Positions 3,179 through 63,265 of a stretch of DNA of 64,000 nt are shown here, piece after piece. The DNA comes from Cetorhinus maximus. Lineage: Eukaryota. The first letter of the stretch is position 1. Each line of letters begins with the position of its first letter. The stretch covers positions 160,642,001 through 160,706,000 of the forward strand of contig NC_135881.1 in NCBI RefSeq assembly GCF_964194155.1. Direction: 5' to 3'. The position numbers and the translations under genes were made by a program. The notes beneath the pieces are model-generated. The model was not told where the DNA came from, did not search any database, and worked only from the letters and a program-made list of their open reading frames with translations.

Positions 3179-6100
3179 GGGCATGATTTTGAGGTCGTGG
3201 GTGTGGTGAGTGGCCCTGGAGCGGCTGGGAAAATTGGCTCCTGACCGTGATTTCGTGCTGGCGGGCCAATTAAGGCCCACCCAGTGTGAAACGTGGCTCT
3301 GCACTGGTTGGGGAGGGCAGAGCGGAGGCAGGGGCCTGTCAGCCACCAGGTCCAATGGCGACCCTACGGCCATTTTAAAAACTGCCCAGGCAGCCCCTGG
3401 AAGGTGTCTAGTATCTTGGCGCACATTGGTGAGGGCACTTCACACTCGCTTGAGGTGCAGGCAGAGGCAGAGAGTGCCCAGGGCGCTGGCAGCATGAGGA
3501 CTGCTGGAGACCAGGACGATGCTCAGTCGAAGGCAGATGATGAGCTTCTGGAGTCATACATTAGGTGGCAGATGCTGGATGTCCAGTGGGATGTGCAGGA
3601 GAATCTGGTGGAGACCCATGAGGGTATGCGCGCCATGGTCTCCATTATGGAGGAGTCCATGCGTGAGCACTATGTTGACCCTCATGGCTGAGCACACTGC
3701 CTCCTTCATGGAGAGAATGGTGACTCTCATGGATAGGTAGCTCCAGGAACAGAACGAGGGGTTCCTGGGGTTACGCTTGGACCTGCAAGACCTCACACAG
3801 GCATTGACCTCAGGTGGTTAGTATCAGTGTGGAAGATGGATGAGGCACCCAGTATCCTAGCTAGGTGCCCATCCATCAACGGTGAGCAGGGAGGTCCTGA
3901 GTGACCTCACATTAGTTCACAAGCTGCCTGTCATCTCTGTGGGCTCCTCTCATGGTACTCTGGATGACGGCAGCAGCTCCTCTGCCCCTTCGCCAGAAGA
4001 CCGCGGCAAATGATGAGGCTGCAATGACTGGGGAGATGCCAGCCATGGAACTGGCCGCTCCCTCCCAGTCAGGGCCAGCACAGGCTCCATTGGCCAGAGG
4101 ATGACCTCCAAGATCATCAAGGCCAACAAGACAGCAGAGTCAGCAGGCTGTCTCCAAGGCGGGGGAGAACCAAGACGTAGCACTCGCAAGCGTAAATTAA
4201 AGGCACCATGAGCACAAGAGGGACAGTTCACAGGTCATTTTGTGTTCATTTATGTTTGCTTTATCTATACTGGTGTGGGAATGAAGACCAGAAAAGTTTA
4301 TGTAAATAGTTATGAATTGCCAAAATGAGATAAATTTTGTTTTTGTCATCATGGCCTGTGTATGCTTCACCTTTTTAGTTTATTGGTGCAGGGTACGCTA
4401 GTATGTAATGCTGGGCATAAGTGGCTCTGAAGTGTTCAGTTGCACAGGCACTGAGTGTTCTTTGTGTTCAAATGAAAGGGTCCTTTCAGACATCCGGGTT
4501 GGAGGCACCAGCCCTGGTATGCGGTTGAACCTGATCTTTGGTAGCCTAGCTAAAGGAGCATTAGATCAAGGTGTCCCTTGTGTCTCTGCCTCCCTGGAGT
4601 TTACTGAGGTCTGCCTCCACATCCTCAGCGTTATCCTCACCATGCTCCTTTTCTGACTCACTACTGGACTCATCCTCTGTGGCCTGTGGAGCTGTGTCAA
4701 GATCCTCTTCCTCTAGTGGGTCCTCCCTTGCCAGTGCCAGATTGTGGAGAGTGCAGCATGTGATCACTGTCAGTGACACCCGCTCTTGGGGGTATTGTAG
4801 TGCTTCCCCTGAACGGTCCAGGCATCAGAAGCGCATCTTCAGAAGACCTATGGTCCTCTCTATCACTGTCCTTGTGGAGGCATGACTCATATTGTAGTGC
4901 TTCTCTGCCTCTGTTCTTGGGTGGTAGAGAGGCATCATGAGCCAGCTCTTCAATGTTAGGCCTTGTCACCCAGCAGCTATCCATCCAGTCGGGCTGGAGC
5001 ACTGAAGAGCCTCAGAACCTGGGAATGTCTGAGGATGTAAGCGTCATGAGAGCTGCTGGGGTACCTTGCACAGACTTGCAGAGCTGCATCCTGTGGTCAT
5101 ACACTATCTGCACGTTCATGGAGTGGAATCCCTTCCTGTTGACGAAGGCACCCGGCTGACCCGCTGGCACCTTCATGGCCACATGTGCAGTCGATGGCAC
5201 TCTGGACACGGGGGAACCCAGCAATCACTTCAAGGCCTCTGGCTCGCTCAGCCTGGCTGGCCTTGTCCATACGGAAATGAATAGATGTGAGTACCTGCCT
5301 GAACAGACCTTCTGTGAACAGCTTGATGTAACTGCGGACAGCTGATTGTGAGACTCCACACAGATTCCCCACTGAACCCTGGAAAGAGCCGGAGGCATAG
5401 AAGTTGAGGGCCACTGTGACCTTCAGAGCCACTGGTATGGGGTGTCCATCCACACAGTTGGAGCTGACCTCAGGCCCAATCATCTGACAAATGAAGGTCA
5501 TGGTCTCTCTTGAGAGGCGGAGACTCCCACGGCATTGCACCTCGGATAGATTGAGGTAGCTGCATTGCTGCCTGTAAACCCTGGCATCAGGATAGTTGCA
5601 CCTTCTGCAGCCCCTTCTGCCTTGGACTTCCTTCTGGCCCTGTGCCCCTTGTGCCTGCACCTCTCCTCCCACCAGTCACTCCCCTGGAAGCTGCATTGGG
5701 ACGCCTGGCCTCCTCTCCTTTCTGCCCCTTCCTTCCTCCTCAGAGAAGGTGCCACCAGCGGAGACCACAATCCCCATTACCAGGGTGACGGAAGGCTGCC
5801 TGATACCTGGACGGGTCCACACAGTCTGAATCCTCCAGGGTCCCTGGAGACACCAAGCAGTCCCAAAATGAAGCCTTTTCCACTAAAAATGAAGCCCCAC
5901 ACAGAGATGAAGCTGCCAAGTACCAATAAGTCACCAGCAACAAACTATGTCCCAAACTCCTCACTACTCACACTGGCAGTGCTGCTGACCCCTTTTATTC
6001 TGCCTGTGGATGAGATTTTTGAAAATGCCGGCTGGTCGCCTGCCCGCTTTGCCCGTGTGACGAGCGCAAAATCACATTGGCAATGAAAAATCACCATCAG

Positions 6101-6292
6101 TTGGATTGTTAATGGTCCTAAGTGGCCTGTTAACTAATGGCAGGCATGGCTCTAGTACCCGCTCGCACCTGCCAAGTGAAATATCGCAGGGGTGCGTGAT
6201 GGCGTCAGGACACTTACCCAACGTCATCACACACTATTTCACGCTCAGGCGTGTCGAGCATGCGCCTGCACGCCAAGTGGAAAATCCTGCCC
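3179..6292. mobile_element. PIF/Harbinger transposon, internally deleted sister of 15318-19458
   Basis: TIRs GGGCATGATTTT and AAAATCCTGCCC, with TSD ATG at 3176-3178 and 6293-6295. Collinear with the second copy except for about 1 kb missing near 3400. Confidence 0.92.
4546..5777 (-). pseudogene. Harbinger transposase, frameshifted
   Basis: LKVTVALNFYASGSFQ, GFPRVQSAIDCT, FVNRKGFHSMNVQIV and TCCTLHNLA occur in several frames. Confidence 0.93.
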
Positions 6293-7852
6293 ATGATTTT
6301 CTGTGAGGTGTATGATTTTACAATATTGCTCCAAAGAAATAGCAGAGAACTCAGAGAGTAATGTAGGAGTTTGGCAAATAGGTCAATTGCATATCTGGGC
6401 AATTTACTTCCCTTAATCTATTAATTGCACATTATATGAAAATCAATATCTTCACTGACTTATTGCACTGGCAGGACTGCACAACTTTATTGAGTCTGCT
6501 TTCTATGAGGTGGAACATGTTACAAATATCACACATCTGAACAACTCATCAAAATTTACCGTCAAAAATACAGCTAAGTCAGTTGTTAAGCTGTTAACCA
6601 TGCACATTGTTATGATTTTGTTAGAGACCATTAATGGTTAAAGAGAAGTCCGAACACCTCATAATTAACTGACAGAACTACACCACAAGATTTCACATTT
6701 TTATACAAAAAGAAACAATTATATATAAAAAGAATTAAGCAAAGCAAGCACTATTGACTTAACACTATAGTTTATAACTACTTATGCTATGAGCTTAGTT
6801 GTACTTTTTAATTCCATGCCCCCCCCCACATCTCCACCCCCACCCCCGAGTCTTCCCTTATACGTTGCAAAAGTCTTGAAGGTTCATTCACTTCTCCTGG
6901 GACCAACTCAAAGGTAGGCCATAGGATCCCCCCACCATGCCCCCTCCTCTCCCCAGAAGTCACTTTGAACTTTCGATTTCTCTTCCAGTGTTCCAAGGTA
7001 TGAAGTTTCATGGGGATCCTTCCATTAGTTTTTGGCTAAGTGATCCTCCAAATTCTCTTCAAAACCTCACAACTGTGGACTTCTCAACTCAAACTTATGC
7101 TTCACTGCATCCTTGCTTATGGATTTAAACATCAAGAACATCCCTGGTTCCTAATGGTCCTCTATGCTCCCACAGCTTCTATACAGTTGTTAGTGCCACA
7201 GCTGATTTCCAGCTCCTGGCAGATGCTTTCTCCCTGCCTGATCCAAGCTGACTGCTTCCAAGCTAGCTACAAACTGCCTTCTGCCACAAGGCTCTATGAA
7301 GATCACTGTAGATTTTTTCCTCAAGCTTCTAGGAAAATCTTCCAGCTTCTTTTTCCCTCACAAATTCCAAACTGAGCTTGAGATTCACCTGCAATCTTCG
7401 AAGTGAATGATTTAGTATTTTCTCTACTTAAGATGTAGGTCCAACTAACATTTATTTCCTTTGGCTCTCCCAACTCAGTGAGCTGCACTCTATGCTAAAC
7501 CAAAACTGCAGCTGCTTCTGTGAGAAACACCCAGCTAAATTAAACAAAGGAATCTTCTAATCCGCACAGCCCAGCTCCATGACAGTCTGGCATGCTTTGG
7601 GATGTTCCAAAATGAAATGCAAACTAATTATCTGTCACCTTGAAAATACTCTTTGATTGTGTGACTCATACGAATAAGTTATATATCTAATGCAGTTTTA
7701 TGACCCTTTCGCTGGATCTTCTAGATCCCCCTGACTGGACCAACTGCCTCTAACTTCTTTTCATCCGGGAGCTACCACATAACTGAAGTATTTTCTTGAA
7801 GTAAACGGAGACCTGCTGGCTATATTACAAGCTCAGTGATAGGTTTAGATCA

Positions 7853-8038
7853 AAAGATAAAAGCAAAATACTGCGGATGCTGGAAATCTGAAACAAAAGC
7901 AAAAATTGCTGGGAAAACTCAGCAGATCTGACAGCATCTGTGGAGAGAAAGACAAAGTTAACGTTTCGAGTCTGTATGACTCTTCTTCAGAACTAAAGAG
8001 AAGTAGAAATGTGGTAAAATACATACTGTTTAAGGGCA
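7853..8038 (-). mobile_element. Short Penelope-type retro-repeat with hammerhead-like motif
   Basis: 10-bp TSD GTTTAGATCA at 7843-7852 and 8039-8048. Related copies at 28483, 47381, 59638 and 24233. Confidence 0.75.
7956..7994 (-). ncRNA. Candidate minimal type I hammerhead ribozyme
   Basis: Minus strand reads AGTT-CTGAAGA-A-GAGTC-ATACA-GACTC-GAA-ACGT-T-AACT. This gives the CUGANGA and GAAA cores, a 5-bp stem II, a palindromic ACGU stem III and a 4-bp stem I. Confidence 0.6.
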
Positions 8039-9299
8039 GTTTAGATCACTGTTTAAGTTTTTACACCTCTCCCTCTGACCTTGTAAGATAAATACCAGTT
8101 GCCTTTTAATTGTAATTAACAGTAAGTTAGTTTGAATCGTGTTCACTTAAGATGCATACCAATTTCTTAACCAGGTGTTTCCATTTAGCTTACATTCAAC
8201 ACTTTAATTTCTAAAACAAAAAGTTATATTCTGAAACAAATGAATTATGAACTAGATATTCACAACAATCATGCACAAACATAATTCACTTGGACAACTT
8301 GCATTGATTAACTCAGGTAAAAATGTGAGAAACTTAAAGTTCACAGATGGCCTTGCTTTACAAGTATGCTTTCACTAATGATGGGCTGGAATTATTAATT
8401 CTCTACATGTACAAAGAAATAACCCATCAAAGAGGAGTCATTAACAAGTAAAGATTATCAATGTTAATTTGAGGGTTATTTACCATTCTTTGTGTCAGCT
8501 AGATCTGCCACAGTCACAGAGCTCTGAGTTTCTTTAGGGTCAGAAAATCCAAAGTTGGTTATTTTCTTGAAGCTACCAGGCTAACACACAATGGCTGAAA
8601 TCTTTTGGAAAAAGAAAGGAAGACTTAATTTATAAAGAATCCCTGCTGACATTCTTGGAAACCTTAGATCACTGAAGTTCACTGACCTGAATGTAAGGAC
8701 CTGACACTTTCAGTCTAATCTTTTATACTTTGGTACTGCTTTAGACTAAAGGTCAGTCAAGGCACCATTTAGTTATGGTAATTTTTCAGATGTTATTTGC
8801 CTTTAGCAGAGTTACTGTAGTCTCTTGAATAAACCACGACTGATATTGATTTGTAAAGTCTCATGCTGAAAGAATTTGACTTCAGCCTTCGATAGCTGAT
8901 CCATCTCATTGGTTTTCAGGTGAAAAGACGGCATTCCTTTAATGCAAATGATCACACTGACAGGGCCTCTGTGCGACATGAGCTCCCTGGAATGCTTCCT
9001 CCCTCATTTTAGGCTATTTTAGAAATTTTATTCTACTGAGAATTATCCCCCAAATATTAGACAGCCAGTAATCAAGACTTACCACCTACCCAACCCTAAT
9101 AAATCCTCAATTCTGCTCATACTGCAAGGCTTGTAAAATGAATTTCAAAATAGGTAGGTGTGTGGTGGTGCATTTTCATAGGAAAAAATATTCCTTAGAA
9201 AACAAGAGTCTAAATAGAAGCAGTGAGATCTAGGGTATAGATTTTTTAAAAACACAGTAAAGGTAGTGATGCAGGTTAAGGCCATTAAAAAAAAAGGGG

Positions 9300-11907
9300 C
9301 AGCCACATTGTTAGGTGTTTATTATAGACCCCCAGATAGTCAACGGGAAATTGAGGAGCAAATATGTGCATAATTCGCGGAGGTGAGTAAAAACAATAAT
9401 AATAGGGTAATTATATTAGGTGATTTCAACTTTCCCAACATTAATTGGGATAGACATAGTGTAAAGGGCTTGGATGGAGTGGATTTCTTGAGATGTGTAC
9501 AGGAGAACTTTTTAGGTCAATATGTAGAGGGCCCAACAAGGGTCGGCGCAGTGCTGGACCTAATTCTGGGAAATGAAGCCGGACAGGTGGCTGAGGTGGT
9601 GGTGGGGGAGCATTTTAGTGATAGCGACCGCAACATGGTACAATTTAAGCTTGTTATGGACAAAGAAATAGACAAGTTGCAAAAAAATGTTTTGGATGGA
9701 TTGGTAGAGAGGAGATTTTAGTAAAATAAGGCAGGATCTGGCCAAGGTAGACTGGGAACAGTTACTTGTGGGGAAATCTACAGAAGAGCAGTGGAGGGCG
9801 TTCAAAAGGGAAATGGGAAGGGTACAGGCTCAACATGTTCCCTCTAGGGTGATAGGAAGGAGTAACAAGCCCAGAGAACCATGGATGACCAGAGATATTC
9901 AGGTTACGATGGGAAGGAAAAGAGAGGCTTTTAGCAGGTTACAAGGGGAGCAAATCAGCGGAGGGATTAGTGGAGTACAGAAAGTGCAGGGTGGAGCTTA
10001 AGAAAGCAATTAGGAGAGCAAAGAGGGGATATGAGAAAGCTCTGGCTGGTAAAAGTAGGGAAAATCCCAAGATAAGTATATCAATGGGAAGAGGATAACC
10101 AGGGAAAGAGTAGGGGCCATTAGGGACCAAGGGGGCAGCCTATGGGTGGAGACAGAGGACATTGGTAGAGTGTTGAATGAATACTTCACATCCACCTTCA
10201 CCCAAGAGAATGAGGATGAAGATATGGAACTCGGGGAGAGGGACTGCGAGGTTCTTGAGCAAATTGATATAGGGAGTGACAAGGTATTGGAGGTGTTGGC
10301 AGGCTTAAAAGTGGACAAATCTCCAGGTCCGGATGATTTGTGTCCCAGACTGCTGAGGGAGGCAAGGGAGGAGATCGCAGGGGCTCTGACCCAAATTTTT
10401 AATTCCTCTCTGGCCACAGGGGAGGTGCCAGAGCACTGGAGAACAGCTAATGTGGTTCTGCTATTTAAGAAGGGTTGTAGAGATAAGCCAGGGAACTACA
10501 GGCCAGTGAGTCTCACGTCAGTGGTAGGGAAACTATTGGAGAAAATTCTGAAGGAGAGAGTCTATCTCCACTTGGAGAGGCAAGGTTTGATCAGGGATAG
10601 TCAGCATGGCTTTGTCAGAGGGAGGTCATGCCTAACAAATTTGATTGAATTTTTTGAGGAGGTGACCAGGTGTGTAGATGAGGGTAGTGTAGTTGATGTA
10701 GTTTATATGGATTTCAGCAAAGCCTTTGACAAGGTCACACATGGGAGACTTATAAAGAAGGCAAATGCACATGGGATACAGGGTAATTTGATAAGGTGGA
10801 TTCAAAATTGGCTTAGTTGTAGGAGACAGAGGCTGATGACAGAAGGCTGCTTTAGTGACTGGAAGCCAGTGTCCAATGGCGTACCACAAGGATATGTGCT
10901 GGGTTCCCTATTATCCATCATTTATATAAATGACATAGATGACTATGTGGGGGGTAGGATTAGTAAGTTTGCGGATGACACAAAGATTGGCAGCGTGGTT
11001 AACAGTGAGGTTGAGTGTCTTGGGCTACAGGAAGATATAGATGGGATGGTCAAATGCGCAGATAAATGGCAGATGGAATTTAACCCTGAAAAGTGTGAGG
11101 TGATACACTTTGGAGGGAGTAATTTGACAAGGAAGTATTCAATGAATGGCATAACACTAGGAAGTTCTGAGGAATAAAGGGACCTTGGCATGTTTGTCCA
11201 TAGATCCCTGAAGGCAGAGGGGCATGTTAGTGGGGTGGTGGAAAAGGCATATGGAACACTTGCCTTTATTAATCGAGGCATAGATTACAAAAGTAGGGAG
11301 GTCATGTTGGAGTTGTATAGAACCTTGGTGAGGCCACAACTGGAGTATTGTGTGCAGTTCTGGTTGCCACATTATAGGAAGGATGTGATTGCACTGGAGG
11401 GGGTGCAGAGGAGATTCACCAGGATGTTGCCTGGGATGAAACATTTAAGTTATGAAGAGAGGCTGGATAAACTTGGGTTGTTTTCATTGAAACAGAGAAG
11501 ACTGAGGGGCGACCTGATCAAGGTGTACAAAATTATGAGGGGCATGAACAGGGTGGATAGGGACCAGCTGTTACATTTAGTTCAAGGGTCAGTCACGAGG
11601 GGACACAAGTTCACGATGGGTGGCAGGAGGTTTAGGGGGGATGTGAGGAAAAACTTTTTTACCCAGAAGGTGGTGGAATGCGCTGCCTGTGAGGGTGGTC
11701 GAGGCGGGTGGCCTCACATCCTTTAAAAAGCACCTGGATGAGCACTTGGCATGTCATAACATTGAAGGCTATGAGCCAAGTGCTGGTAAATGGAATTAGG
11801 TACATAAGTCAGGTGTTTCTCACGTTTTGGTGCAGACTCAATGGCCCGAAGGGCCTCTGTGTGACTGACACTCTGATTCACACTGGCCTCTGTGTGATTC
11901 TGTGATC
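9300..11907 (+). mobile_element. CR1 LINE, 5'-truncated (endonuclease and RT), frameshifted
   Basis: IILGDFNFPNINW, LDLIL and SD endonuclease motifs. The 343-aa ORF 10146-11177 has KSPGPD, NYRPVSLTS, MDFSKAFDKV, GVPQG and FADD. Ends in the TGTGATTCTGTGAT CR1-type tail. Confidence 0.95.
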
Positions 11908-15582: not shown

Positions 15583-17422
15583 ATGGCCTCAACAGCGGCT
15601 GGTGACACCAGGCAGGAGGGCAGGTCAGGCGGCAGTCGGCCCCCCATTTTTCAGACGAATGCCTTCGGGAGCTCTTGTAGGAGGTGGCTGCCAGGAGGGA
15701 CACCCTTGTCCCCAGAGATGGAAGGAGGAAGCCACCACACCAGACAAAAAAAGCTTGGGAGGAGGTGGCAGCCCAGGTCAGCAGCCAAGATAATGTGTGG
15801 CACACATGGGTGCAGTGCTGCAAAGGTTCAACGGCCTGCTGTGCTCGGGAAGGGTGAGTACCATGTTGGCATGGATCAGTGCGGTGAAGTGTTAAGGGCT
15901 GGCCATCCCGCCGTGGAGCTCAGGGATGTTGGAGTCTGAGCGCCAACTGCCAATGATGCCAGAGCTGGCCAAGTGGGTGAGCCTTGGCTGCTTGGACTGA
16001 GTGCCTTGAGACTCGAGGGCCATGACTTGGATGTGCCCTGCAAGGTGTTCCTCAGGTGGGGTTAGTCAGGCTGCAATGGCGATGCAGATAGATAGTGGAC
16101 TAATCAGTGCTCCTCTGTCCTTTCAGGAGAAGACATTGAAAGTCATGGACAGGCGGAGGCCCCTCAAACCTAATATTGACCAGATTTGAGCAAGAGGCCT
16201 TGGGGCTGGAGAGCTGCTATGTACCTCATTCAGCCGGCCATGGAGAGGTTGAGGTGTTAGACGAAGGTTAGAGTGCAGTGCACAGAGGTGAGTTTCAGAT
16301 TGTGCAAACATTTTTGTGTAGTCTCTTAATTGATAACAGCTTCAAAACCAGATTCCCCATTGATCATTGAAAGACAATGGCACCATGATGAAGATCTGCA
16401 TTGCCTCACCAGGGTGCCTGGCATACACAGTGACAGGTTGATGACTTAAACTAATCACATATCGTATTTCTCCCTTAGATTCGCCAGCAGGCACTCGTTT
16501 GCAGGGCCCCGAAGAGCTACCCCTGATGCCAGAGGACCGGCAGGCTTCACCTGCGTCACACCCACTGTCTGAACCAGGTACCAGCGCAAATACCAGCGTC
16601 TCTGTGGGTGTTAGATTTTTGGTTAGAGTGTTGGTGCACAGCAGTGAGGGCAGTTCACAGTTGCTTGAGGTGCAGGCAGAGGCGCAGGGCGCTGGCAATC
16701 GAAGGACTGCTGAAGGCCAGGACGATGCTGATTTGAAGGCAGGTGATGAGCCTCTGGAGCCTTACATTAGGCGGCAGCTGCTGGATGTCCAGCAGGATGT
16801 GCGGGAGGATCTGGCAGACATCCATGAGGGTATGCGTGCCATGGTCTCTGTTGTAGAGGAGTCCATGCTGAGCATCTGCACTGCGTTGACCCTCATCACC
16901 GAGTGCACTGCCTCCTCCATTGAGAGAGTGGTGACTCTCATGGAGAGGCAGCTCCAGGAACAGAGTTAGGTGTTCCTGGGGTTGCTCTCGGACCTGCAAG
17001 CCTTCGCACAGACCTCAGGTGGTTAGTGCCAGTGTGGGAGATGGATGAGGCACCCAGTATCCTAGTTAGTTGCCCATCCATCAATGGCAAGCAGGGAGGT
17101 CCAGAGTGACCTCACATTGGCACACAAGCTGCTTGTCGTCTCTGTGGGCTCCTCTCAGGGTGCTCTGGATGATGGCAACAGCTCCTCCGCCCCTCTGCCA
17201 GTGACCGTGGCATCTGATGAGGCTGCATTGACTGGGGGGATGCCAGCCATGGCACTGGCCGCTCCCTCCCAGGCGGGGCCAGCACAGACCCCACTGGCCA
17301 GAGGACGACTGCCAAGGTCATCAAGGCCAACAAGACAGCAGAGTCAGCAGGCTGTCTCCAATACCACTGCCAGCAGGGGGGGTGGGGGGCACCAGGACGT
17401 AGCACTCGAATCGCGAGTTTAA
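15583..17422 (+). pseudogene. Harbinger Myb/SANT-like DNA-binding protein gene, three exons, disrupted
   Basis: Exon 1 (15583-15853) encodes ...KKAWEEVAAQVSS...WVQC... and ends AGG|gtgagt. Exon 2 is 16127-16287 (cctttcag| ... AG|gtgagt). Exon 3 starts at 16479 (cccttag|) with a helical LLDVQQDVREDL region. Stops and frameshifts are present. Confidence 0.75.
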
Positions 17423-17757
17423 AGCACCATGAGCACAAGAGGGACTGGGCATGGGTGATCTTCTGTTTTGCAATGTTTTGTTCATATGTCTACAGATGTG
17501 GAAATGAACACCAAAAATGGTAATATTCATTTGTTTTGAGTGTGAAAATTACATAAATTTTGTTTTTGTCGTAATGGCCTGAGTATGCTTCACTTTTTTT
17601 GGTGCAGGGTACGCCAGTATGTAATGCTGAATGTGAGTGGCTCTAAATTTTATTGCACAGGCACTGTTAGACTTTGGGTTCAAATGAAAGGGTAACTTCA
17701 GACATCCAGGATGGAGGCGCCTCCCCTGGCAAGAGGTGGAAGCAGATCTTTGTCAGC

Positions 17758-18963
17758 CTAGCTGAAGCAGCATTGGATCTAGGCATCCTTGGTGTCCCTG
17801 TCTCCCTGAAGGATCCACGCCCTCAGCATTCTCCTCACCGTGCTCCTTTTCTGACTCATGACTGGATTCATCCTCTGTGGCCTGTGGAGCTACCTCAAGA
17901 TCTTCTTCCTCCAGTGGGTCCCCCCTTGCCAGTGCCAGATTATGGAGAACGCAACATGCAACCACTATCAGTGACACCTGCTCTGGGGGCTGTTGCAGTG
18001 CTCCCCCTGAATGGTCCAGGCATCGGAAGTGTATCTTCAGAAGACCTATGGTCCACTCTATCACCGCCCTTGTGGAGGTATGACTCCTATTATAACGCTG
18101 CTCTGCCTCTGTTCTTGGGTGGCGGAGAGGCATCATAAGCCACCTTTTGAATGGATAGCCCTTGTCACCCAGCAGCCATCCATCCAGTCGGGCTAGAGCA
18201 TTGAATAGCCCCGGCACCTGGGAGTGTCTCAGGATATAAGCGTCTTGGGAGCTGCCAGGGTACCTTGCACAGACTTGCTGAATCTGCATCTTGTGGTCAC
18301 ACACTATCTGGACGCTGATCCCTTCCTGTTGACGAAGGCACCCGGCTGACCCACTGGCGCCTTGATGACCACATGTGTGCAGTCGATTGCACCCTGGATG
18401 CCGGGGAACCCAGCAATCACTGCAAAGCCTCTGGCTTGCTCAGCCTGGCTGGCCGCGTCCATACGGAAATTAATAAATGTCATTACCCACCTGAACAGAG
18501 CTTCTGTCACCAGCTTGGCGCAACTGGGGACAGCTGATTGAGACACCCCATAAAGACCCCCCACTGACCCCTGGAAAGAGCTGGTGGCATAGAAGCTGAG
18601 GGGCCACTGTGACCTTCAGAGCCATGGCATGGTTCGTCCACCCACATAGCTGGAGGTGATCTCAGGCCCAATCATCTGACAAATGGAGGTCACAGTCTCC
18701 CTGGAGAGGCGGAGCCTCCTTCGGCATTGCACCTTGGACATATTGAAATAGCTGCATCATTGCCTGTAAACCCTGGAAGCAGGATAGTGGCGTCTTCTGT
18801 AGCCCCTTCTGCCTTCCTGCTGGCCCTGTGCCCCTTGTGCCTGCACCACTCCTCCCACAGGTCGCTCCCCTGGAAGCTGCATTGGGACACCTGGCCTCCT
18901 CTCCCTTCTGCCCCTTTCTTCCTCCTCAGAGAATGTGCCTCCAGTGGAGAGCACAATCCTCAT
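17758..18963 (-). pseudogene. Harbinger (HARBI1-like DDE) transposase, frameshifted
   Basis: Motifs GFPGIQGAIDCTHV, FVNRKG, ARYPGSSQDAYIL, LLGDKGYP, YNRSHTSTRAVIEWTIGLLK and ACCVLHN are spread over several frames. Confidence 0.93.
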
Positions 18964-19466
18964 TACCAGGGTAACAGAAGGCTGTTTGATACCTGGAAGG
19001 GTCCACACAGTCTGAAACCTCCAAGTGCCTTGGAGACACCAATGAAATGCAGCCTGGAAATGCTAAGAATGAAGCTTAGAGCTGAGGTGAAGCTGTCAAG
19101 TTCAAATAAGCAACCAGCAGCAAACTATCTCCTAAACTCCTCACTACTCACACTGGCAATGCTGCTGACACTTTTAATCCTGCTCTTGGATGAGGTTTTG
19201 CAAAATGTGGGCTGCCCACCTGCTCGTTTTGGCCATGCAACAAGCACAAAATCTTGGGGGCAATGTAAAATTTGCATCAATTGGGTTTTTAATGGCCTTA
19301 AGTGGCCATAAGTGGCTCCGACACCCACGCACTCCTGCCGACCTGAAGATTGTGTACGTGTGGGATGACGTCGGGACACTTGCCCGACATTTTCTCACGT
19401 GATTTTACACCGGATTGGGTCGGGCGTGCACCCACCCTCGAGGCCTAAAATTCTGCCCATGGACTA

Positions 19467-23700: not shown

Positions 23701-24639
23701 TTAATAACAGTTATCTCTGGACTGGACCATAATAACCTACCTTCAAGCTATAACATGATTGACCAACTTTAAAACATGGTTTCACAAAATAATACCTGAA
23801 TTAAGTGAGATTGACTGAGAAACACATGGTTAAATTCTGCACTAATATGCCTCAATTCATTTCTCATTTGCATTAAGTTATGAAACACTGCATTCCAACC
23901 ATTGGACATGAGCTATAATCCACATAGTTTTATATGTCATTTTTTTATGTTAACTCTCCTTGAATGCACTATAATGTTTTTAAAGTTTAGTACCAACCTT
24001 TACTCAAACTGAAAGAGTTTAAAACGAAAACTAAATTAGGCATTGTTAAAAGCAATTATTACAACAAATTCAAAGTTAATGCTGGTTCTTGGTCATGCAG
24101 GCACATCATGATTGAAGGGAGGGCTGAATTTACACTCCTCGTTGGTTTTATTGTTTGGATTGATACCCATTGCTTTGGGAGATTTCTATTCAGTAAGCAA
24201 ATGTTATGTAACCTGATTTGAAATGCTAGATATAAAAACAGAAAATACTGGAAATGCTCAGCAGGTCAGGCAGCATCCAAGGAGAAAGAAACAGTTACTA
24301 TTTCAGGTCAATGATCTTTTCGCACCTTGAAGTACCAATTACTCCCCTACCAATGCTAGTGTTTGAATTTTATGCAGCCAGCACCTTTGGGATCCATCCT
24401 GAAACATGCAAAACTTCTCAAGTCACTACTGCTGGGCATATAGCGTGGAGACAGAGCTGGGTGAAGCACAAAAAGAGCTGAAGCTGAGGATGTGGTGATA
24501 ATAAAAAAGTTTGCTGGAGAGGAGGAAGGTGTTTCTCACCTTCAACGAGAAGGATAGAGTCACAGAACTCAAGGATTCTAAGGCAAGTATCTTGATATTT
24601 TATAATTTGGTTTTTAGGAGTTTAGGAGGTCATTTGGGC

Positions 24640-28482: not shown

Positions 28483-28856
28483 AAAACAAAAAAACTGCGG
28501 ATGCTGGAAATCCAAAACAAAAACAAAAATAAAAATACCTGGAAAAACTCAGCAGGTCTGACAGCATCTGCGGAGAGGAATACAGTTAACGTTTCGAGTC
28601 CGTATGACTCTTCAACAGAACTAAGGAAAAATAGAAGAGAGGCGAAATATAAACTGGTTTAAGGAGAGGGTGGGACAGGTAGAACTGGATAGAGGGCCAG
28701 TGAGAGGTGGAGATTGCCAAAATATGTCATAGACAAAAGGACAAAGAGGTGTTGACTGTGGTGATATTAGCTAAGAAATGTGCTAATAGGTGACATTAAG
28801 AGTAGAAAGGTACAGATAGCCCTAGTGGGGGTGGAGTTGGGGGGGAAGGGATCGAA
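28483..28856 (-). mobile_element. Longer copy of the hammerhead-bearing retro-repeat
   Basis: 11-bp TSD ATATATTAGAT at 28472-28482 and 28857-28867. The motif at 28584-28622 has the core variant CTGTTGA. Confidence 0.75.
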
Positions 28857-37309: not shown

Positions 37310-39165
37310 TGCAGAAAACTTAGAGTACTATAAAAGTGTAGGGGTGAAATTAAAAAGGAAATTAGGAAAGCATAAAGAGAGCATGAAAAAATATGGGCAA
37401 GTAAAGTCACAGAAAAGCCAAAGATATTTTACAAATATATAAAGAGCAAGAGGATACCTAAAGAAAGAGTAGGACCTATTAGGGAGCTGTCTGTGGAGAC
37501 AGGCGTTGGTACGGTCTCAATGAATACTTTTCATTTGTTTCCACAAAAGAGTGGGCAATACAGACATTGCAATCAGGGAGGAGTGTGATACATTATATGA
37601 AATTTATATAGTGAGAGAGGAAGTAATAAGATGTTTAACATCTTTGAAAGTGGATAAATCCCCAGGCCTGGATGAATATTTTCTAGGCAGTCAAGGGAAG
37701 CAAGAGAAGAGATAATGGAAGCTCTATCCATTGTTTTCAAATTCTCCCTGGCTACAGATGTGGTGCCAGAGAATGGAGGACAGCTAACATTATATCACTG
37801 TTTAAAAGGGGAGAAAGGGATAGACTGAGTAATTACAGACTAATCAGCCTAACCTCAGTGGTGGGAAAATTATTGGAAATAATTCTGAAGGACAAGGTAA
37901 ATCTTCATTTAGAAAGGCACGGATTAATAAACGACAGCCCAGCTTGTTAAGGGAAGATCATGTTTAACTAACATGATTGAATTTTTGACGAGATAACAAA
38001 GAGGGTCAATGAGGGCATTTAATGTAGTCTATGTGGAATTTAGCAAGGTTTTTGATAAGGTCTCACATGGCAAACTGGTGACAAAAGTAAAAGTCCAATG
38101 GGATCCAAGGCAAAATGGCAAGTTGGATTCAAAATTGGCTTAGATACAGGAAGCAAAGGACAACAGTATTTTTGTGACTGGAAGATTGTTTCTGGTTCTG
38201 CTCAGTACTTGCTTTTTGTGTTACATATCAATGGTTTGGGTATGTATAGGTTGTATGATTAAGAAATTTACAGACGATACAAAAATTGGCTCTGTGGTTG
38301 ATAATGAAAAAGAAAGTTGTAAACAGTAGCAAGATATCAATGGACTAGTTAGACAGGTGGAACAGTGGCAAATAGCGTTCAATCTGGAGGAGTGTGCAGT
38401 AATGCATTTGGGGAAGGATAACAAGACAAGGAATACACAATGAATGGTAGGACACTGAGAAGTGTAGAGGGACATTGGAATGCATGTCCACAGATCCCTG
38501 AAGGTGAGTGTATAGGTAGATAAGGTGGTCAAGAAAGGGATACTTACCTTTATTAGCTGAGGCATAGAATATAAGAGCAGGGAATTTATGCTGGAACTGT
38601 AGGAAAAACTAGTTAGGCCACAGCTGGAGTGCTGCATGCAGTTCTGGTCACCACACTATAGGAAAGATGTGATTTCAATAGCGAGGGTACAGAGAAGATT
38701 TACGAGGATATTCCCTGAACTGGGAAATTTTAATTAAGGGGAAAAATTGGATAGGCTAGGACTGTTTTCTTTGGAATAGAGGAAGCAGAGGGGACACTGA
38801 ATTAAAGTGTTTAAAATTATGACGGTCCAGATCAAGCAGCTAGGAAGGCCTTATTCCCCTGGTTGAGGGGGTCCATTACCAGGGGCCATAGATTTAGAGT
38901 AAGAGGTAGTAGGTTTTGTTTAGGGATTTGAGAGGAAATGTTTTGACCCAGATGGTGCTGGGGATCTGAAACTCTCTGTCTCAAATCTGAAACATTTAAA
39001 AAGTATTTTGATGTGCACTTGAAATGCATAACCTACAAGAGTAGGGACGATGGTCTAGAAAGTAGAATTAAGCTGGATGGCTCCTTGTCAATCAGGGCAG
39101 ATAGATGGGCCAAAGGGCCTCCTGCCATGCAGTAAAAGTTCTATGATTTAATGAGTCTATGATTT
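37310..39165 (+). mobile_element. Decayed CR1 LINE
   Basis: Similar to 9970-11860 throughout (VDKSPG, NYRLISLTS and FTDDTKIG remnants). Tail TTCTATGATT. A short minus-strand CR1 piece precedes it at about 36890-37195. Confidence 0.85.
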
Positions 39166-47380: not shown

Positions 47381-47570
47381 ATAAAAGCAAAATACTGTGG
47401 ATGCTGGAAATCTGAAATAGAAACAGAAAATGCTGGAAAAACCCAGCAGGTCTGGTAGCATCTGTGGAGAGAGAAAATTAACCTCGAGTCTGTATGACTC
47501 AAAGTCATACAGACTCAACGTTAACTTTCTCTCTCCACTGCTGAGTTTTTCCAGCATTTTCTATTTTTAC
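47381..47570. repeat. Fold-back (inverted) copy of the same retro-repeat
   Basis: GAGTCTGTATGACT-CAA-AGTCATACAGACTC at the centre, with imperfectly complementary arms. Confidence 0.8.
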
Positions 47571-51563: not shown

Positions 51564-52108
51564 CTGAAGGACAGAAACAGAATCAAAGCACGGTTACCTG
51601 GAGCGTATGAACTTTTGTAATGCCTAGTTCCTTCACACTCACACTTTATATCACCTTATAAATAAATAAACAAACATTATTATTAGGCGAGGCAAGCAGT
51701 AACAAAATCGAAATCATGCAACACGTTTCCTGCTCAACAGATTAATCTTTACCCCTAATTTAGACCGTGCTTTACTGCAGTAAAATCACCAGCAGCCTCT
51801 TTTCGAAGGAACTACTGCCGAGTTTAGAGAGATTGGCGGTTAGAATGGTACTGCTGATAACCTATTGAGGTGAGAGTCTCCCGTGGAGAAGCTGTCATTT
51901 AAAATTCATACCATAATAACTATCCTCGCCAGGGGCCTGTCCACCTGTATTGTATGCTACAACAGCATTAAGAAATTCACAGTAAAAGATTTAAAAAAAT
52001 ATCTCGGACTGTTCTCGCACTGTCAACCCATTAACACTGCACTAACATGTGCTGGCAATTTATACCGTTACTTTCCCGGTCAAACCTCAGGCATTGAGAA
52101 TCACTTAC

Positions 52109-52283
52109 TCGGGCGTGTTGATCCAGATGATGTCCAAGTGGCAGAAGTAGATGCATTCCTTGTCCAGAAAAGAGGAACAGGAACAGCGCTTGGAGCGGCT
52201 GAGCCGGCGGGGAAGGGAGCTGGAAGCTTGACCGGCAGAGAAGACGGGAGACACGGTCACTGCTACACCCGAGAGCGGGGAGC
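52109..52283 (-). CDS. EDN1: Preproendothelin-1, exon 2 (furin site and mature endothelin)
   Basis: Polypyrimidine acceptor tctctctctgtttcgcag| and donor GA|gtaagt. Encodes ...[34 protein letters not shown]. The mature 21-mer at 52123-52185 has Cys1/3/11/15 and the HLDIIW tail diagnostic of endothelins. Confidence 0.97.
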
Positions 52284-53577
52284 CTGCGAAACAGAGAGAG
52301 AGGCTATTAGTGCCACACAGTATCAGAGGGTGGATGGCCAAAAACTCGCCATATATCATTGCTCATAACTTAATCAATACAGTCTAATGTACTGAATGAA
52401 TATCATAAACTGATCAATATTCTCTTTTAGTGTGGTGCTGTAATTGGAGTGAAAAAGCTTTTCTGGTGGAGTTCAGTGAAGCCTCCTGGTGACCCCGGGC
52501 TCAGTACATACAGCCCGGCGGGACAGTGCGGTCCCGGGCTCTGTATACAGCCCGACTCCGCCGATCAGCATGACCAGTAAATCTCAGAATAATGGCTAAA
52601 TCAAGTCTGGAATATGAGGCGGGAACAACAAAGTCATCCAGATCTGATCTCAGGTATAATACAAGAAAGCGAAACTTCAATAAAGCAGCGCTGTAGCTGC
52701 GGCATGTAGAAATGGTGTTCGGTGTTCTCCGTTAGTAATTTGTAAAGAACACTTCTGATCGGACTGCAGATTCTTAAAAAGCTCCAGAAGAGCCTTTGCT
52801 GCTTTACCTCCCAGTAAGTTGCTGGTCTAGTTACTGAGTAACATGCAGCTCGGATTAATCCTGCGCTCTCCTCCAAACGGGGCCCTGGGACCTGTGGCTG
52901 GAAGCAAGTGCACCTGCTGAGTTGTCAGGCATCCAGCTACTTATTTACACACCAAGTACACCGCAGGCAGCTTTGGGCTTCCTTTTCATGCATATTTGCA
53001 ATTTTAACCCGGTGTTAAGTCAACTAGTACCAGATTTCAGTCACAAAGGTAAGTTACTTTCAGATTCATGAAATTTGCCGTCACGTAACCCAGATTTGGA
53101 CATTTTCCTAAAAAGTCTCTTCAGGTACGAGCAGCAGTTAGTCCTGCACTGATTCGAGACCGCAGGCACCTTGGTTAGCGCACTGTTCTAGCCTGTGTAA
53201 AACATTTATTTTATAGATTCGTTTTTTATGAAACTACTTAAACTTTTAAACAGCTTGAATTAAGAGGTCGAATAGAGAGAAACAAAACCTTGAGGTTAGA
53301 TATTTGGCACCTGAGCACTGAATTTATTATATAAACGTTAATCTTTATATATATTAGATACATAAAAGTTAGACAGATATACATGGTGGAGCATGAGTAG
53401 TGTTAGTCCCAAAGTTGCTTAATACAAATTTCGGATAATTCAAGTAAAATCCTCTTCGTGTTTTCTCTTTGCTTAATTCGTTATTTGGGTAGTATTTTAA
53501 GCGCTGATAACGACTTTGAATTAACTGTAGATTAGAAAGTGATCGATTTTAAAGCTCCCATGAGGATTTAGACCTAC

Positions 53578-58119: not shown

Positions 58120-59543
58120 ATACTATATTCTAGAAATAATTATTCAGGATAGAATTAGTAGTCACATGGAAAAATGGACTGATAAGGAAGAGGATTTCTA
58201 AGGGGGAAATTGTGTTTAACTAACTTGCTGGAGTTTTTTGAAAAGATATCAGAAAAGGTCAATAAGGGTAATGCTGTTGATTTGGTGTACATGGACTTTC
58301 AAAAGGCATTCGATACAGTGCCACACAACAGACTAGTGAGAAAAGTTATTGCTCATGGAATAAAAGAGACAGTAGCAATGTGGATACAGAATTGGCTGAA
58401 AAAGAGGAAACAGAGAGTAATGGTCAATGGATATATTTCAGGCTGGAGGAAGGTTTATAGTGGAGCTCCCCAGGGGTCAGTATTAGGATCCTTACTTTTC
58501 CTGATATATATTAATGATCTAGATCTTGGTGTGCAGGGACAATTTCAAAGTTTGTGAATGATATGAAGCTTGGGAGTGTTCTAAACTGCGAGGAGGACAG
58601 TGTAGAACTTCAAAAGGACATAGACAAGTGGGTGGGGTGGGCAGATAGGTTGCAAATAAAGTTCAATGCGGAGAAGTGTGAGCTGATGCATTTTGGTAGG
58701 AAGAACATGGACAGACAATATAAATTGAGGGGTAAAATTTGAAGGGGGTGCAGGAGTAGAGACCCTGGGTGTATGTGTGCATAGATCATTGAAGGTGGCA
58801 GGACAGGTGGAGAGAGCAGTTAATAAAGCATATAGTATTCTGGGCTTTATTAATAGGGGCTTAGAGTACAAGAGTAGGGAGGTTGAGAAACTTATCAGCC
58901 ATGATTGAATGGCGGAGCAGACTCGATGGGCCGAATGGCCAAATTTCTGCTCCTAGGTCTTATGGTCTTATGGTTAGCTGAATTTATATAAGACACTCAT
59001 TAGACCTCAGCTGGAGTATTGTGCACCGTTCTGGGTGCCACATTATAGGAAGTGCAGAAGAGGTTTACAAGAATGGTTCCAGGGATGAGAAACTTCAGTT
59101 ACGAAGATAGATTGCAGATGTTGGGACTGTTCTCCTTGGAGAGAAGATGGCCAAGAGGAGATTTGATAGAGATGTTCAAAATCATGAGGGGGCTGGGCAG
59201 AGTAGATAGGGAGAAGCTGTTCCCGCTCGTAAAAGGATCAAAAACAAGAGGGCACAGATTTAAAGTGATTTGCAAAAGAAGCAAATGTGATGTGAGAAAA
59301 GACTTTTTCACACAATGAATGGTTTGGGTCTGGAGTGCACTGCCTGGAAGTGTGGTGGAGGGAGGTTCAATCGAGGCATTCAAGAGGGCATTAGATGATT
59401 GTTTGAATAGAAACGATGTGCGGGGGTATGGGGAAAAGGCAGGGCAATGGCACTAGGTCAGAATGCTCGTTTGGAGAGCCAATGCTGACATGATGGGCCA
59501 AATGGCCTCCTTCTGTACAGTTAAAGTTCTGTGATTCTGTGAT
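58120..59543 (+). mobile_element. CR1 LINE (RT and 3' end) with a small nested CR1 tail at about 58885-58975
   Basis: CLTNLLEFF, MDFQKAFDTVPH and GAPQGSVLG motifs. Tail TTCTGTGATTCTGTGAT. Confidence 0.92.
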
Positions 59544-59637
59544 TAGGAAAATTGTGAGAATCATACCTTTCCCTCAATTGGAGTGTACAGTTACTCTGCT
59601 TGCATGCTTGTTTCTCCAAGTGTGACAATCATTGAAG

Positions 59638-59768
59638 TTCTGTTGAAGAGTTATACAGACTCAAAACGTTGACTGTGTTCCTCTCCGCAGATGCTGTTGG
59701 ACCTGCTGAGTTTTTCCAGGTATTTTTATTTTTGTTTTGGATTTCCAGCATCTGCAGTTTTTTGCTTT
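59638..59768 (+). mobile_element. Short copy of the hammerhead-bearing retro-repeat
   Basis: 11-bp TSD AATCATTGAAG at 59627-59637 and 59769-59779. It begins at a degenerate motif. Confidence 0.75.
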
Positions 59769-61282: not shown

Positions 61283-62267
61283 TTGATGCCTTCGAGCTTT
61301 ATACCCATGTGTAATTGTTCTCATATGCCTAGTCTTAATAAATGAACCCACAACGTGTTTACCTAATCCCTTATGAGTAATTGGTGCCTTGTGTCTCGTG
61401 TTGTATAAGCCCAAGGTTACAATTCTAATTATCATTATAATTACACAACATGGTGCTCAGCGACGGTCAGATGGGTGGCAGCAAGATTAAGTGCAGACAC
61501 AACGTGGTGAACAGCCTTGGATCGTGCTACATGCAACAAAGTCGCAGCATCAGAGAGAAAACATAGCATGCTGACTGCAAACAAAAGCTATGAAGACACA
61601 GCACTGAGCTAGTGCTTAAATAAAGAGCTGGAAAGCAGATGGATCCCTTGTGGTGAGATTGCAGTGCATAGCCCGTCAGTTCTGTGATTGGGAGAATGCA
61701 TCAAGAGGACCAACATTGGGTTATCTCAGTTGAGTCAGGGGAGTGACCAGGGTGTGGGCCAGTTCAATAACAAACAAGAAAGTCAAACAAAAAAAAAAAT
61801 CATAAAAATCTGTCCAGAGAAAGCTGTGATTATTACAGGTGTCTTCAGGAGTGGCTGAGCAATAAATTGAACAAAAAGTAAAAACACTATTACACTGTGG
61901 TGCATTCCTGCCACAACTTGTCTTCATGGGTAGAGCTTCAGAAAAGTGCACAAAAGTGGCTACACTGACACTCATCCCAGGGCTATTTTCAAAAAGGTCT
62001 GCAAAATTCCCCAGTTTGAAGTTGGATGCAGCTGACCTACTATCTGAATTTAAAATGTCTAAACAGCGCAGGGAGCTATTGTTTCTTGATCCAGGTGCGT
62101 CTGAACCAGATAAGCAAGCCATAAAAATTCACCTAGCAATTGGGAATGAAGGTCTACACAGGCTGAACATCTCACGATTAATAGAAGAAGAACTAAAGGA
62201 TTTCCAAAAGGTATGGACTACATTGGAAGACTGGTTCGGAAGCACGTTAAACTTCTGTATTCATTGA
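61155..62267 (+). mobile_element. Ty3/Gypsy-type 5' relic: LTR, PBS and gag start
   Basis: LTR TGTTGT...ACAACA (61155-61450) contains AATAAA and is followed directly by TGG (PBS-like). ORF 61926-62267 is gag-like (QAIKIHLAIGNEGL...VWTTLEDWF). Confidence 0.7.
61252..61278 (+). repeat. (CA)n microsatellite inside the LTR
   Basis: Seen directly in the sequence. Confidence 0.95.
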
Positions 62268-63265
62268 ACATATGAAATAGGAGCAGAAGTAGGCCATTTG
62301 GCCCCTTGAGCCTGTTCTACCATTCAATAAGATCATGTCTGATCTGTTTGTGTGTCGAGTTCCATGTCCCCATCTATCCCCAATTCCCTTTGATCTCCTA
62401 GCCTAACAAGTAACTATTTAACTCTGCCTTAAAAATATTCAGTGACCCCGCCTCCACCACCTTCTGAGGCAGAGTTCTGAAGTTGCACAATCCTGAGAGA
62501 AAAATTCTCTCCTCATCTCTGTCCTATAAGGGTTATCCCGAATTTTAAAGCAATGGTCCCTAGTTCTGGACTCAAGAGGAAACATCCTTTTCACATCCAC
62601 CTTGTCAAGATCATTCTTATGGATCTTATATATTTCAATCAAGTCACCCCTCACTCTTCTAACCTCCAGTGGAAACAAGCCCAGTCTATCCAACCTTTCC
62701 TCATAAGACAACCCGCTCATTCCAGGTATCAATCTAGTAAACCTCCTCTGAACCACCTCTAACGCATTTACATCCTTCCTTAAATAAGGAGACAAAACTG
62801 CATACACTATTCGAGATGTGGTCCCACCAATGCCCTATATAACTGAAGCATAAAATCCTTACTTTTATGTTCAATTCCTCTCATAGTAAAGGATAGCATT
62901 CCATTAGCCTTTTTGATTACATGCTGTACCTTCATACCAACTTTTTGTTACGAGAACACCTGCACCTTGGAATTCTGCAGTCGCTCTCCTTAAGTAACAC
63001 TCTGCTTTTTTATTCTTTCTGCCAAAGTGAACAACTTCACATTTTCCCACTTTATACTCCATCTGCCAGATTTTTGTCCAATTATTCAACTTCTGTATCC
63101 ATGTGAAGACTCCTTATGTCTTCTTCACAACATACTTCCCTACCTATTTTTGTCTCATCTGCAAATTTACTTACCATGCCTTCGCCGCCCCCCCGCACCC
63201 CCGCCCCCCCCTCCCACACACCTCATTTAAATCACTGGCGCAGATTGTAAGAAGTTGAGGCCCCA
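62266..63265 (-). mobile_element. CR1 3' fragment
   Basis: ORFs 62439-62807 and 62904-63089 carry CR1 C-terminal motifs. The fragment truncates the Gypsy gag relic. Confidence 0.88.

What the first reader, a model, noticed from the sequence alone, without database searches (positions are those of the whole stretch)
7853..8038. Short retro-repeat family with a minimal hammerhead ribozyme motif and 10-11 bp target duplications
Seen: at least five related copies (7853, 24233, 28483, 47381, 59638). The fuller ones share a 3' end (...GCAGTATTTTGCTTTT) and vary at the 5' end, and three have exact 10-11 bp TSDs. The 7956-7994 copy has CUGAAGA, stem II, GAAA, a palindromic ACGU and stem I. Established: Penelope-like elements and non-LTR retrozymes carry minimal type I hammerheads that cleave as dimers through a palindromic stem III. 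Inference: this is a non-coding, ribozyme-processed element mobilised in trans, or truncated Penelope ends. The extra A after CUGANGA is non-canonical.
Basis: partly seen in the sequence, partly recalled or inferred. Interest (0 to 1): 0.7.

Follow-up and report, generated by a model that had tools for sequence, protein, structure and literature searches.

The report
Truncated Penelope end with hammerhead ribozyme
This is the cut-short tail end of a very abundant Penelope-type jumping gene, likely in a shark genome, carrying the small hammerhead RNA motif already known from such elements (predicted to self-cut, untested here); it is mostly ordinary, though younger relatives replaced a normally fixed core letter and kept spreading.

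Summary
In detail: five related copies, three exact 10-11 bp target duplications, and a minimal type I hammerhead at 7956-7994 (minus strand). The repeat is not an independent non-coding element. It is the 5'-truncated 3' end (pseudo-LTR) of an autonomous Penelope-like retrotransposon of Neptune/Nematis type: 28 of the 29 closest copies run further 5', several into a GIY-YIG and RT frame, and a full pLTR-ORF-pLTR copy exists. About 430,000 fragments are estimated genome-wide. The 'extra A' is a published, conserved trait of these ribozymes, not an oddity. Copies are dispersed, not tandem, so they are not retrozymes. Subfamilies form one age ladder in which stem II always pairs, free positions vary, and only core A6 changed (to U, then C) in the youngest, most numerous branches; the focal copy has the older canonical core. 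About 20-30% of copies start at the ribozyme's first bases, 30 nt below a TATA-like box, likely the RNA start; 1 of 261 starts near the cut site. Cleavage was not tested. The scan noted the A6 change and the shared start before, on other DNA.

The parts
7853..8038 (-). 5'-truncated 3' end (pLTR) of a Penelope-like retrotransposon, older canonical-core subfamily (A)
   Evidence: 92-96% identical to 39 other scored copies; 28 of 29 fetched copies extend further 5'
7843..7852 (+). target-site duplication, left copy (10 bp)
8039..8048 (+). target-site duplication, right copy (10 bp)
8017..8025 (-). TATA-like box (one base decayed here), 31 nt upstream of the ribozyme's first base; promoter role inferred
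   Evidence: TATAWW at -26 to -32 in 114 of 127 copies that keep this region; the copy filter shares part of the motif
7956..7994 (-). minimal type I hammerhead: stem I 7991-7994/7956-7959, core CUGAAGA 7984-7990, extra A 7983, stem II 7978-7982/7968-7972, GAA 7965-7967, palindromic ACGU 7961-7964, U17 7960; predicted cut between 7960 and 7959
   Evidence: sequence; pairing across subfamilies
7860..7893 (-). about 33-nt 'tail' between the family's short and long 3' ends
   Evidence: bimodal 3' ends at about +101 and +135
28483..28856 (-). 374-bp truncated copy, younger subfamily with U at core position 6; 11-bp duplication
59638..59768 (+). 131-bp copy starting at the ribozyme's first bases, U at position 6; 11-bp duplication
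47381..47570 (.). two-armed inverted insertion (long arm minus, short arm plus); both arms lack the CUGA core; no exact abutting duplication
24229..24319 (-). old, decayed copy of the oldest subfamily (stem II AGGUC/GACCU type), short 3' end, damaged core

Best explanation
The 186-bp repeat is the 5'-truncated 3' end of an autonomous Penelope-like retrotransposon, likely made by target-primed reverse transcription that began at the element's distal 3' start site and stopped early, and it carries the element's minimal hammerhead, which is predicted to cut only as a dimer and is likely inert in this lone copy. Shown: the repeat is collinear with the end of an RT plus GIY-YIG frame; there are two 3' ends, target duplications, inverted two-armed insertions, and a subfamily ladder with stem II always paired. 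Inferred: the element's endonuclease nicks both strands about 14 bp apart and each nick primes at one of two RNA sites (the long or the short end). A TATA-like box 30 nt above the ribozyme would start the element's RNA at the ribozyme's first base, so the ribozyme would sit in the first 39 nt of the mRNA, and the many 100-135 bp copies would be complete copies of that 5' leader. In the source element the motif was under selection for its fold. Cleavage is likely slow and not needed for insertion, since branches with A6 replaced made most of the recent copies.
For: 28 of 29 closest copies extend 5'; L025 and L014 run into endonuclease and RT frames. L039 is pLTR, 926-aa open frame, pLTR. L042 hits RVT_1 (E 7e-6) and GIY-YIG and shows DKG, YIDD, a CX4CxxC linker and CxxC inside GIY-YIG, as described in PMC8557442. 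The named top relatives come from sharks and rays, 61-71% identical. An RT fragment had 58,471 first-look candidates. Duplications of 8 bp or more: 101 of 246 rows (mode 14) against 5 of 300 controls. 42 of 42 inverted pairs have one short and one long end, the known one-sided tail. Stem II pairs in 75 of 75 cells, with two double-sided changes. 7 of 7 free positions vary against 1 of 14 core positions (p 7e-5). 5' ends: 54 of 261 at -2..+5 against 27 over the 57 nt upstream; about 30 of the first 100 B3 copies.
Against: No cleavage or RNA data: the dimer, the RNA start and the slow rate are all inferred. Core versus downstream flank (1 of 14 against 19 of 63 variable) is not significant (p 0.10). 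Rfam's hammerhead models do not detect the motif. The focal region folds no better than shuffles (z -0.27) and its best fold lacks stem I. 2 of 3 long frames gave no Pfam hit and the RVT_1 score is under the curated cut-off. The full-length copy found (L039) is of the U6 subfamily (85% identical), not the focal one. In the youngest branch the loss of matches across the start region is even and modest (6451, 5783, 5107), so the start hot spot is weak there. The clade call rests on motifs, not on a tree with named references.
Confidence: 0.9

Rival explanations
1. A non-autonomous non-LTR retrozyme or SINE-like element, processed by its ribozyme into circles and mobilised in trans by the Penelope protein.
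For: Retrozymes are proposed to derive from pLTRs (10.64898/2026.07.22.740005). Many copies share a 5' start and are 100-135 bp. Rare head-to-tail 134-135 nt dimers exist (L090; 4 contigs in run X1).
Against: 2 of 43 unbiased copies have a same-strand neighbour within 1 kb and no arrays were seen. The focal copy starts 44 nt upstream of the shared start and is collinear with the coding element. Short copies follow the same subfamily ladder as coding ones. 5' ends lie at the ribozyme's first base, not at the cut site.
Confidence: 0.05
2. The element is as described, but the motif is kept for a non-catalytic job (a 5' leader fold bound by the element's protein, or a pairing site that brings two RNAs together for two-armed insertion) and no longer cuts in the young branches.
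For: A6 became U, then C, in branches with 19,704 and 10,992 exact motif copies against 3,498 for the focal type. In the anole element, catalytic mutants did not affect insertion in vitro and no RNA reads ended at the cut site (PMC11167929). With U6 the core strand is predicted to pair with the GAAACG strand. ACGU is invariant across subfamilies.
Against: The other 13 core positions stayed fixed, which fits continued catalysis. A natural A6C hammerhead keeps low but detectable activity (PMC3088659). An earlier, unchecked scan note (e1-8661026) reports rare copies starting at the cut site.
Confidence: 0.3
3. The shared 5' start marks a splice acceptor (pyrimidine tract, AG, then the ribozyme) rather than a transcription start, as in Drosophila virilis Penelope, where the intron end maps to helix I.
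For: The sequence before the ribozyme is a pyrimidine run ending in AG, and the 5'-end peak is at +1 to +3. PMC4209133 notes the intron end at helix I in D. virilis.
Against: No shared upstream exon precedes the truncated copies. A TATA-like box sits at a fixed -29 to -31.
Confidence: 0.1

Closest known systems
[quoted passage not shown]
   Same: No helix III, palindromic 15.2-16.2, 4-bp helix I, an unpaired base between 9 and 10.1, G10.1-C11.1 pair, mostly lone copies from truncated elements.
   Different: Helix II is 5 bp (7-8 bp in Schistosoma). Position 17 is U here. The younger relatives carry U6 or C6, which that paper's parts 1-2 do not describe. No shark family appears in the parts read.
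Neptune/Nematis-type EN+ Penelope-like elements (PMC8557442, PMC3846280)
   Same: One RT plus C-terminal GIY-YIG frame, DKG, linker Zn-finger, CCHH cysteines, pLTRs, 5' truncation, inverted 5' arm, 30-40 bp tail on one end only, TATA/Inr-like motif in the pLTR.
   Different: Not placed on a tree with named references. No microsatellite targeting was noticed (not tested).
PAc, Poseidon of Anolis carolinensis (Frangieh et al. 2024, PMC11167929)
   Same: Two adjacent RT start sites that give the tail; both strands cut and extended; minimal hammerhead near the ORF start.
   Different: PAc is of the Poseidon clade, which lacks the linker Zn-finger, and its ORF starts inside stem II; here the main ATG lies about 130 nt downstream of the ribozyme. 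Here each two-armed insertion uses one long and one short end (42 of 42), whereas in vitro PAc showed no strand difference in start site.
Metazoan non-LTR retrozymes (PMC7229834; 10.64898/2026.07.22.740005)
   Same: Short, AT-rich, type I hammerhead, long target duplications, related to pLTRs.
   Different: Those are tandem repeats with mostly canonical ribozymes and circular RNAs; these copies are dispersed fragments of a coding element.

Membership tests
EN+ Penelope-like element | Single ORF with PLE-type RT and C-terminal GIY-YIG | tested here: met
   Not in the 186-bp copy itself but in collinear relatives: L042 RVT_1 E 7e-6 (under cut-off) and GIY-YIG at cut-off; L025; homologues carry PF00078 and PF01541
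EN+ Penelope-like element | pLTR on both sides of the ORF (partial tandem) | tested here: met
   L039 6879-6727, ORF, 3637-3456
EN+ Penelope-like element | 5' truncation, inverted 5' arm, 30-40 bp tail on one end, target duplication | tested here: met
Neptune/Nematis clades | CX2-5CxxC linker Zn-finger, DKG, CCHH cysteines inside GIY-YIG | tested here: met
   CNRRRCNTC-type linker, DKG and CxxC read in the frames; definitions from PMC8557442 passages
Neptune clade | RT phylogeny with named Neptune references | not tested
   No named reference sequences were fetched
PLE minimal hammerhead | CUGANGA and GAAA..UH core, helix I and II, base between 9 and 10.1, palindromic 15.2-16.2 | tested here: met
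   Focal copy 7956-7994; features from PMC4209133. The 28483 and 59638 copies fail at A6
PLE minimal hammerhead | Covariation in stems across families | tested here: met
   Stem II 75 of 75 cells paired, 2 pairs with double-sided change; sequences are related, so the shuffle figure (2 of 500) is not a probability
PLE minimal hammerhead | Self-cleavage as a dimer | not testable with these tools
   Needs a bench assay
Rfam hammerhead families | Match to a covariance model | tested here: not met
   No hammerhead among 5 matches at E up to 10
Non-LTR retrozyme | Tandem repeats with a ribozyme in each unit | tested here: not met
   2 of 43 unbiased and 13 of 261 total copies have a same-strand neighbour within 1 kb; no arrays
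Non-LTR retrozyme | Independent of a coding element | tested here: not met
Non-LTR retrozyme | Circular RNA | not testable with these tools
   No raw RNA reads were available

The most novel reading that the evidence does not exclude
This family is a natural experiment on why Penelope elements keep a hammerhead. The ribozyme is the very 5' end of the mRNA, where cutting would remove the cap. The master lineage weakened the cut (A6 to U, then C) while keeping both stems and the ACGU palindrome, and then made most recent copies. The fold and palindrome would serve to pair two RNAs, one primed at each start site, to build the two-armed insertions.
Probability: 0.25. Interest if true: 0.6.

Novelty: new member of a known kind. 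Interest (0 to 1): 0.28.

Why it matters
The flagged copy is an ordinary fragment of a known kind of element. The value lies in the family: one dated lineage offers canonical, U6 and C6 versions of the same ribozyme, tens of thousands of insertion junctions and a likely RNA start. Together these make the open question of what the PLE hammerhead does in cells directly testable.

Tried and rejected
Rfam scan: no hammerhead hit. Single-strand folding gave no signal over shuffles for 5 of 5 versions (z -1.3 to +0.1). PDB sequence search with the ORF: 0 hits. Sequencing runs: no RNA holder listed; run X24 is only guessed to be RNA and its contigs cannot show ends or strand, so nothing is drawn from it. 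A pile-up of 5' ends at the cut site was looked for and not seen (1 of 261, an inversion junction); events rarer than about 1% would be missed. Genome-wide pattern ladders alone could not place the 5' hot spot: C2 fell evenly and B3 fell 15481, 11688, 8069, partly through upstream variants; the 47 dropped copies among the first 100 were then read one by one. A longer stem I in the youngest branch was considered; the two extra pairs form in only 4 and 8 of 15 rows. An upstream short reading frame in phase with the main ORF was considered; the only two junction rows matched (two overlapping loci of one insertion) were out of phase. The first divergence estimate was inflated by mixed 3' ends and replaced. 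Lunse et al. 2017 (PMC5785218), which describes PLE hammerhead variants, is not held, so it may already list position-6 variants.

Full report
1. Observation. The window lies at G000:C3:160642001-160706000 of a 4.0-Gb genome. The host is likely a shark, as the named best protein relatives are from sharks and rays. The five copies, three exact duplications (10, 11, 11 bp) and the motif at 7956-7994 are all in the sequence. The element reads on the minus strand at 7853. Rfam finds no hammerhead.

2. What it is. A search with the 186 bp scored 40 of 1319 candidates, at 92-96% identity besides itself. 28 of the 29 other fetched copies extend at least 25 nt further 5', by up to 1.5 kb; the exception has an inverted endonuclease piece directly upstream. 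The extensions run through a 3' UTR into a GIY-YIG domain and an RT with YIDD. An RT fragment drew 58,471 first-look candidates. Of 20 loci chosen for long frames, L039 is a whole unit: pLTR, 926-aa open frame, pLTR. L042 hits RVT_1 and GIY-YIG; L039 and L040 gave no Pfam hit at E 0.01. The frames carry DKG, a CX4CxxC linker and CxxC inside GIY-YIG, which PMC8557442 (passages) gives for Neptune and Nematis and not for Penelope/Poseidon. In 60 evenly spaced 10-kb stretches a profile found 65 hits, about 430,000 fragments genome-wide (95% range 334,000-551,000).

3. Insertion anatomy. 3' ends fall in two peaks about 33 nt apart (94 and 124 of 269 copies). This is the known 30-40 bp tail (PMC3846280 and PMC8557442, passages), explained in PMC11167929 (parts 1-2 of 4 read) by two RT start sites. 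Duplications of 8 bp or more flank 101 of 246 rows, mode 14 bp, against 5 of 300 controls; two-armed insertions count twice. All 42 inverted pairs with a flanking repeat of 9 bp or more have one short and one long end; about four of those flanking matches may be chance. A tail on one end only is already described. Copies are dispersed: 2 of 43 in the unbiased sample have a same-strand neighbour within 1 kb. In two related organisms, contigs run from the left flank (about 3-5% diverged) 27 bases into the insert, short of a formal bridge, so the focal insertion is likely older than their split.

4. The ribozyme. The motif matches the minimal PLE hammerhead of PMC4209133 (parts 1-2 of 4 read), which names the base between 9 and 10.1, the G10.1-C11.1 pair and the palindrome as conserved traits and reports low, dimer-dependent activity. 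271 of 280 copies were sorted into subfamilies without using positions 6 and 7. Non-CpG divergence downstream of the motif: O 12.4%, A0 8.8%, A (focal) 4.7% (6.4% in 8 unselected copies), B types 2.3-4.7% (one group mixes A6 and U6), C1 1.3%, C2 0.9%. A tree of 64 linked endonuclease regions is a ladder in the same order, with weak support among the older nodes. Along it, 7 of 7 free positions (N7, loop II, H17) change against 1 of 14 core positions (p 7e-5); against the downstream flank the contrast is not significant (p 0.10). Stem II pairs in 75 of 75 cells with two double-sided changes; the four stem I pairs hold in 57 of 60 cells, and A0 has a mismatch.

5. Side findings. The one core change is A6, to U and then C. 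Exact motif counts are 163 (O), 3,498 (focal type), 19,704 (U6) and 10,992 (C6), with 0 for each reversed control; exact counts favour young copies and the patterns differ in degeneracy. The U6 motif is also abundant in the two related organisms (3341 and 2950 contigs at 99% or more). A natural A6C hammerhead is slow, under 0.1 per minute, but active (PMC3088659, passages). 5' ends pile up at the ribozyme's first bases: 54 of 261 at -2..+5 against 27 over the 57 nt upstream, and 9 of 43 in the unbiased sample. Among the first 100 B3 copies, 47 failed the upstream pattern and about 30 of those truly end at -4..+5. The effect is weak in C2. A TATA-like box lies 26-32 nt upstream in 114 of 127 copies, a count partly built into the filter. 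I infer that the RNA starts at the ribozyme. A pLTR TATA/Inr pair is reported for a rotifer element, whereas D. virilis Penelope has a TATA-less internal promoter (PMC2377424, passages). One of 261 copies starts near the cut site.

6. Mechanism. Shown: identity, boundaries, subfamily order and pairing. Inferred: nicking of both strands about 14 bp apart, priming at two RNA sites, early stop for this copy (44 nt above the ribozyme), dimer-dependent cleavage in the source RNA, and no function for this lone copy. In the anole element the ribozyme needs the protein to cut and is dispensable for insertion in vitro, which fits the A6 loss here.

7. Literature and earlier notes. Searches for a shark PLE hammerhead or these core variants found nothing relevant, but Lunse et al. 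2017 could be seen only as a citation. The retrozyme definition is from PMC7229834 (passages) and 10.64898/2026.07.22.740005 (parts 1 and 3 of 5 and passages; its supplements were not seen and may list a cartilaginous-fish family). PMC6765202, PMC6155905 and PMC11014351 were seen as passages only. After the analysis, the scan's notes showed the A6 change, the shared start and the inverted stubs already recorded on other DNA; these are unchecked and are not counted as support.

8. Verdict. A real, correctly spotted feature; a new member of a known kind; interest 0.28.

Noticed in passing
window 28610-28622 and 59636-59650; genome-wide: Younger subfamilies replaced core A6 by U, then C, while keeping the stems; these branches hold most exact motif copies.
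   Followed up: yes
L006, L025, L053, L142 and others: 42 of 42 inverted two-armed insertions pair one long and one short 3' end, usually inside a 14-bp duplication; in L221 and L217 the two arms differ at subfamily-diagnostic sites, which hints at two templates.
   Followed up: partly
window 47458-47544: The inverted junction forms a long hairpin that scores weakly as a microRNA precursor in Rfam (44 bits, cut-off 90); an artefact of the inversion.
   Followed up: yes
L039 6879-6727 versus 3637-3456: The two pLTRs of one full-length copy belong to different U6 sub-types (stem II GGGUC versus GAGUC).
   Followed up: no
L254 about 100-170: A 46-nt tandem duplication of the ribozyme region itself, a ready-made head-to-tail pair.
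   Followed up: no
window 3416-6127 and 16631-19307: Two 81% identical copies of a likely Harbinger-type DNA transposon (DDE_Tnp_4 at 17753-18439; a Myb/SANT frame at 1966-2610).
   Followed up: partly
window 9981-11726, 37333-38825, 58186-59361, 62265-63164: Several decayed LINE copies (RVT_1 E 5e-33 at 10059-11177); the CR1-like label is recalled, not tested.
   Followed up: partly
window about 52100-52300, plus strand: A possible host coding exon (a frame starting MAVSSVL read from the opposite-strand ORF 51874-52368); gene not identified.
   Followed up: no
L059-L078 (200 kb beside the window): Only 5 family hits in 200 kb, against 65 in 600 kb of spaced samples; a locally depleted region.
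   Followed up: no
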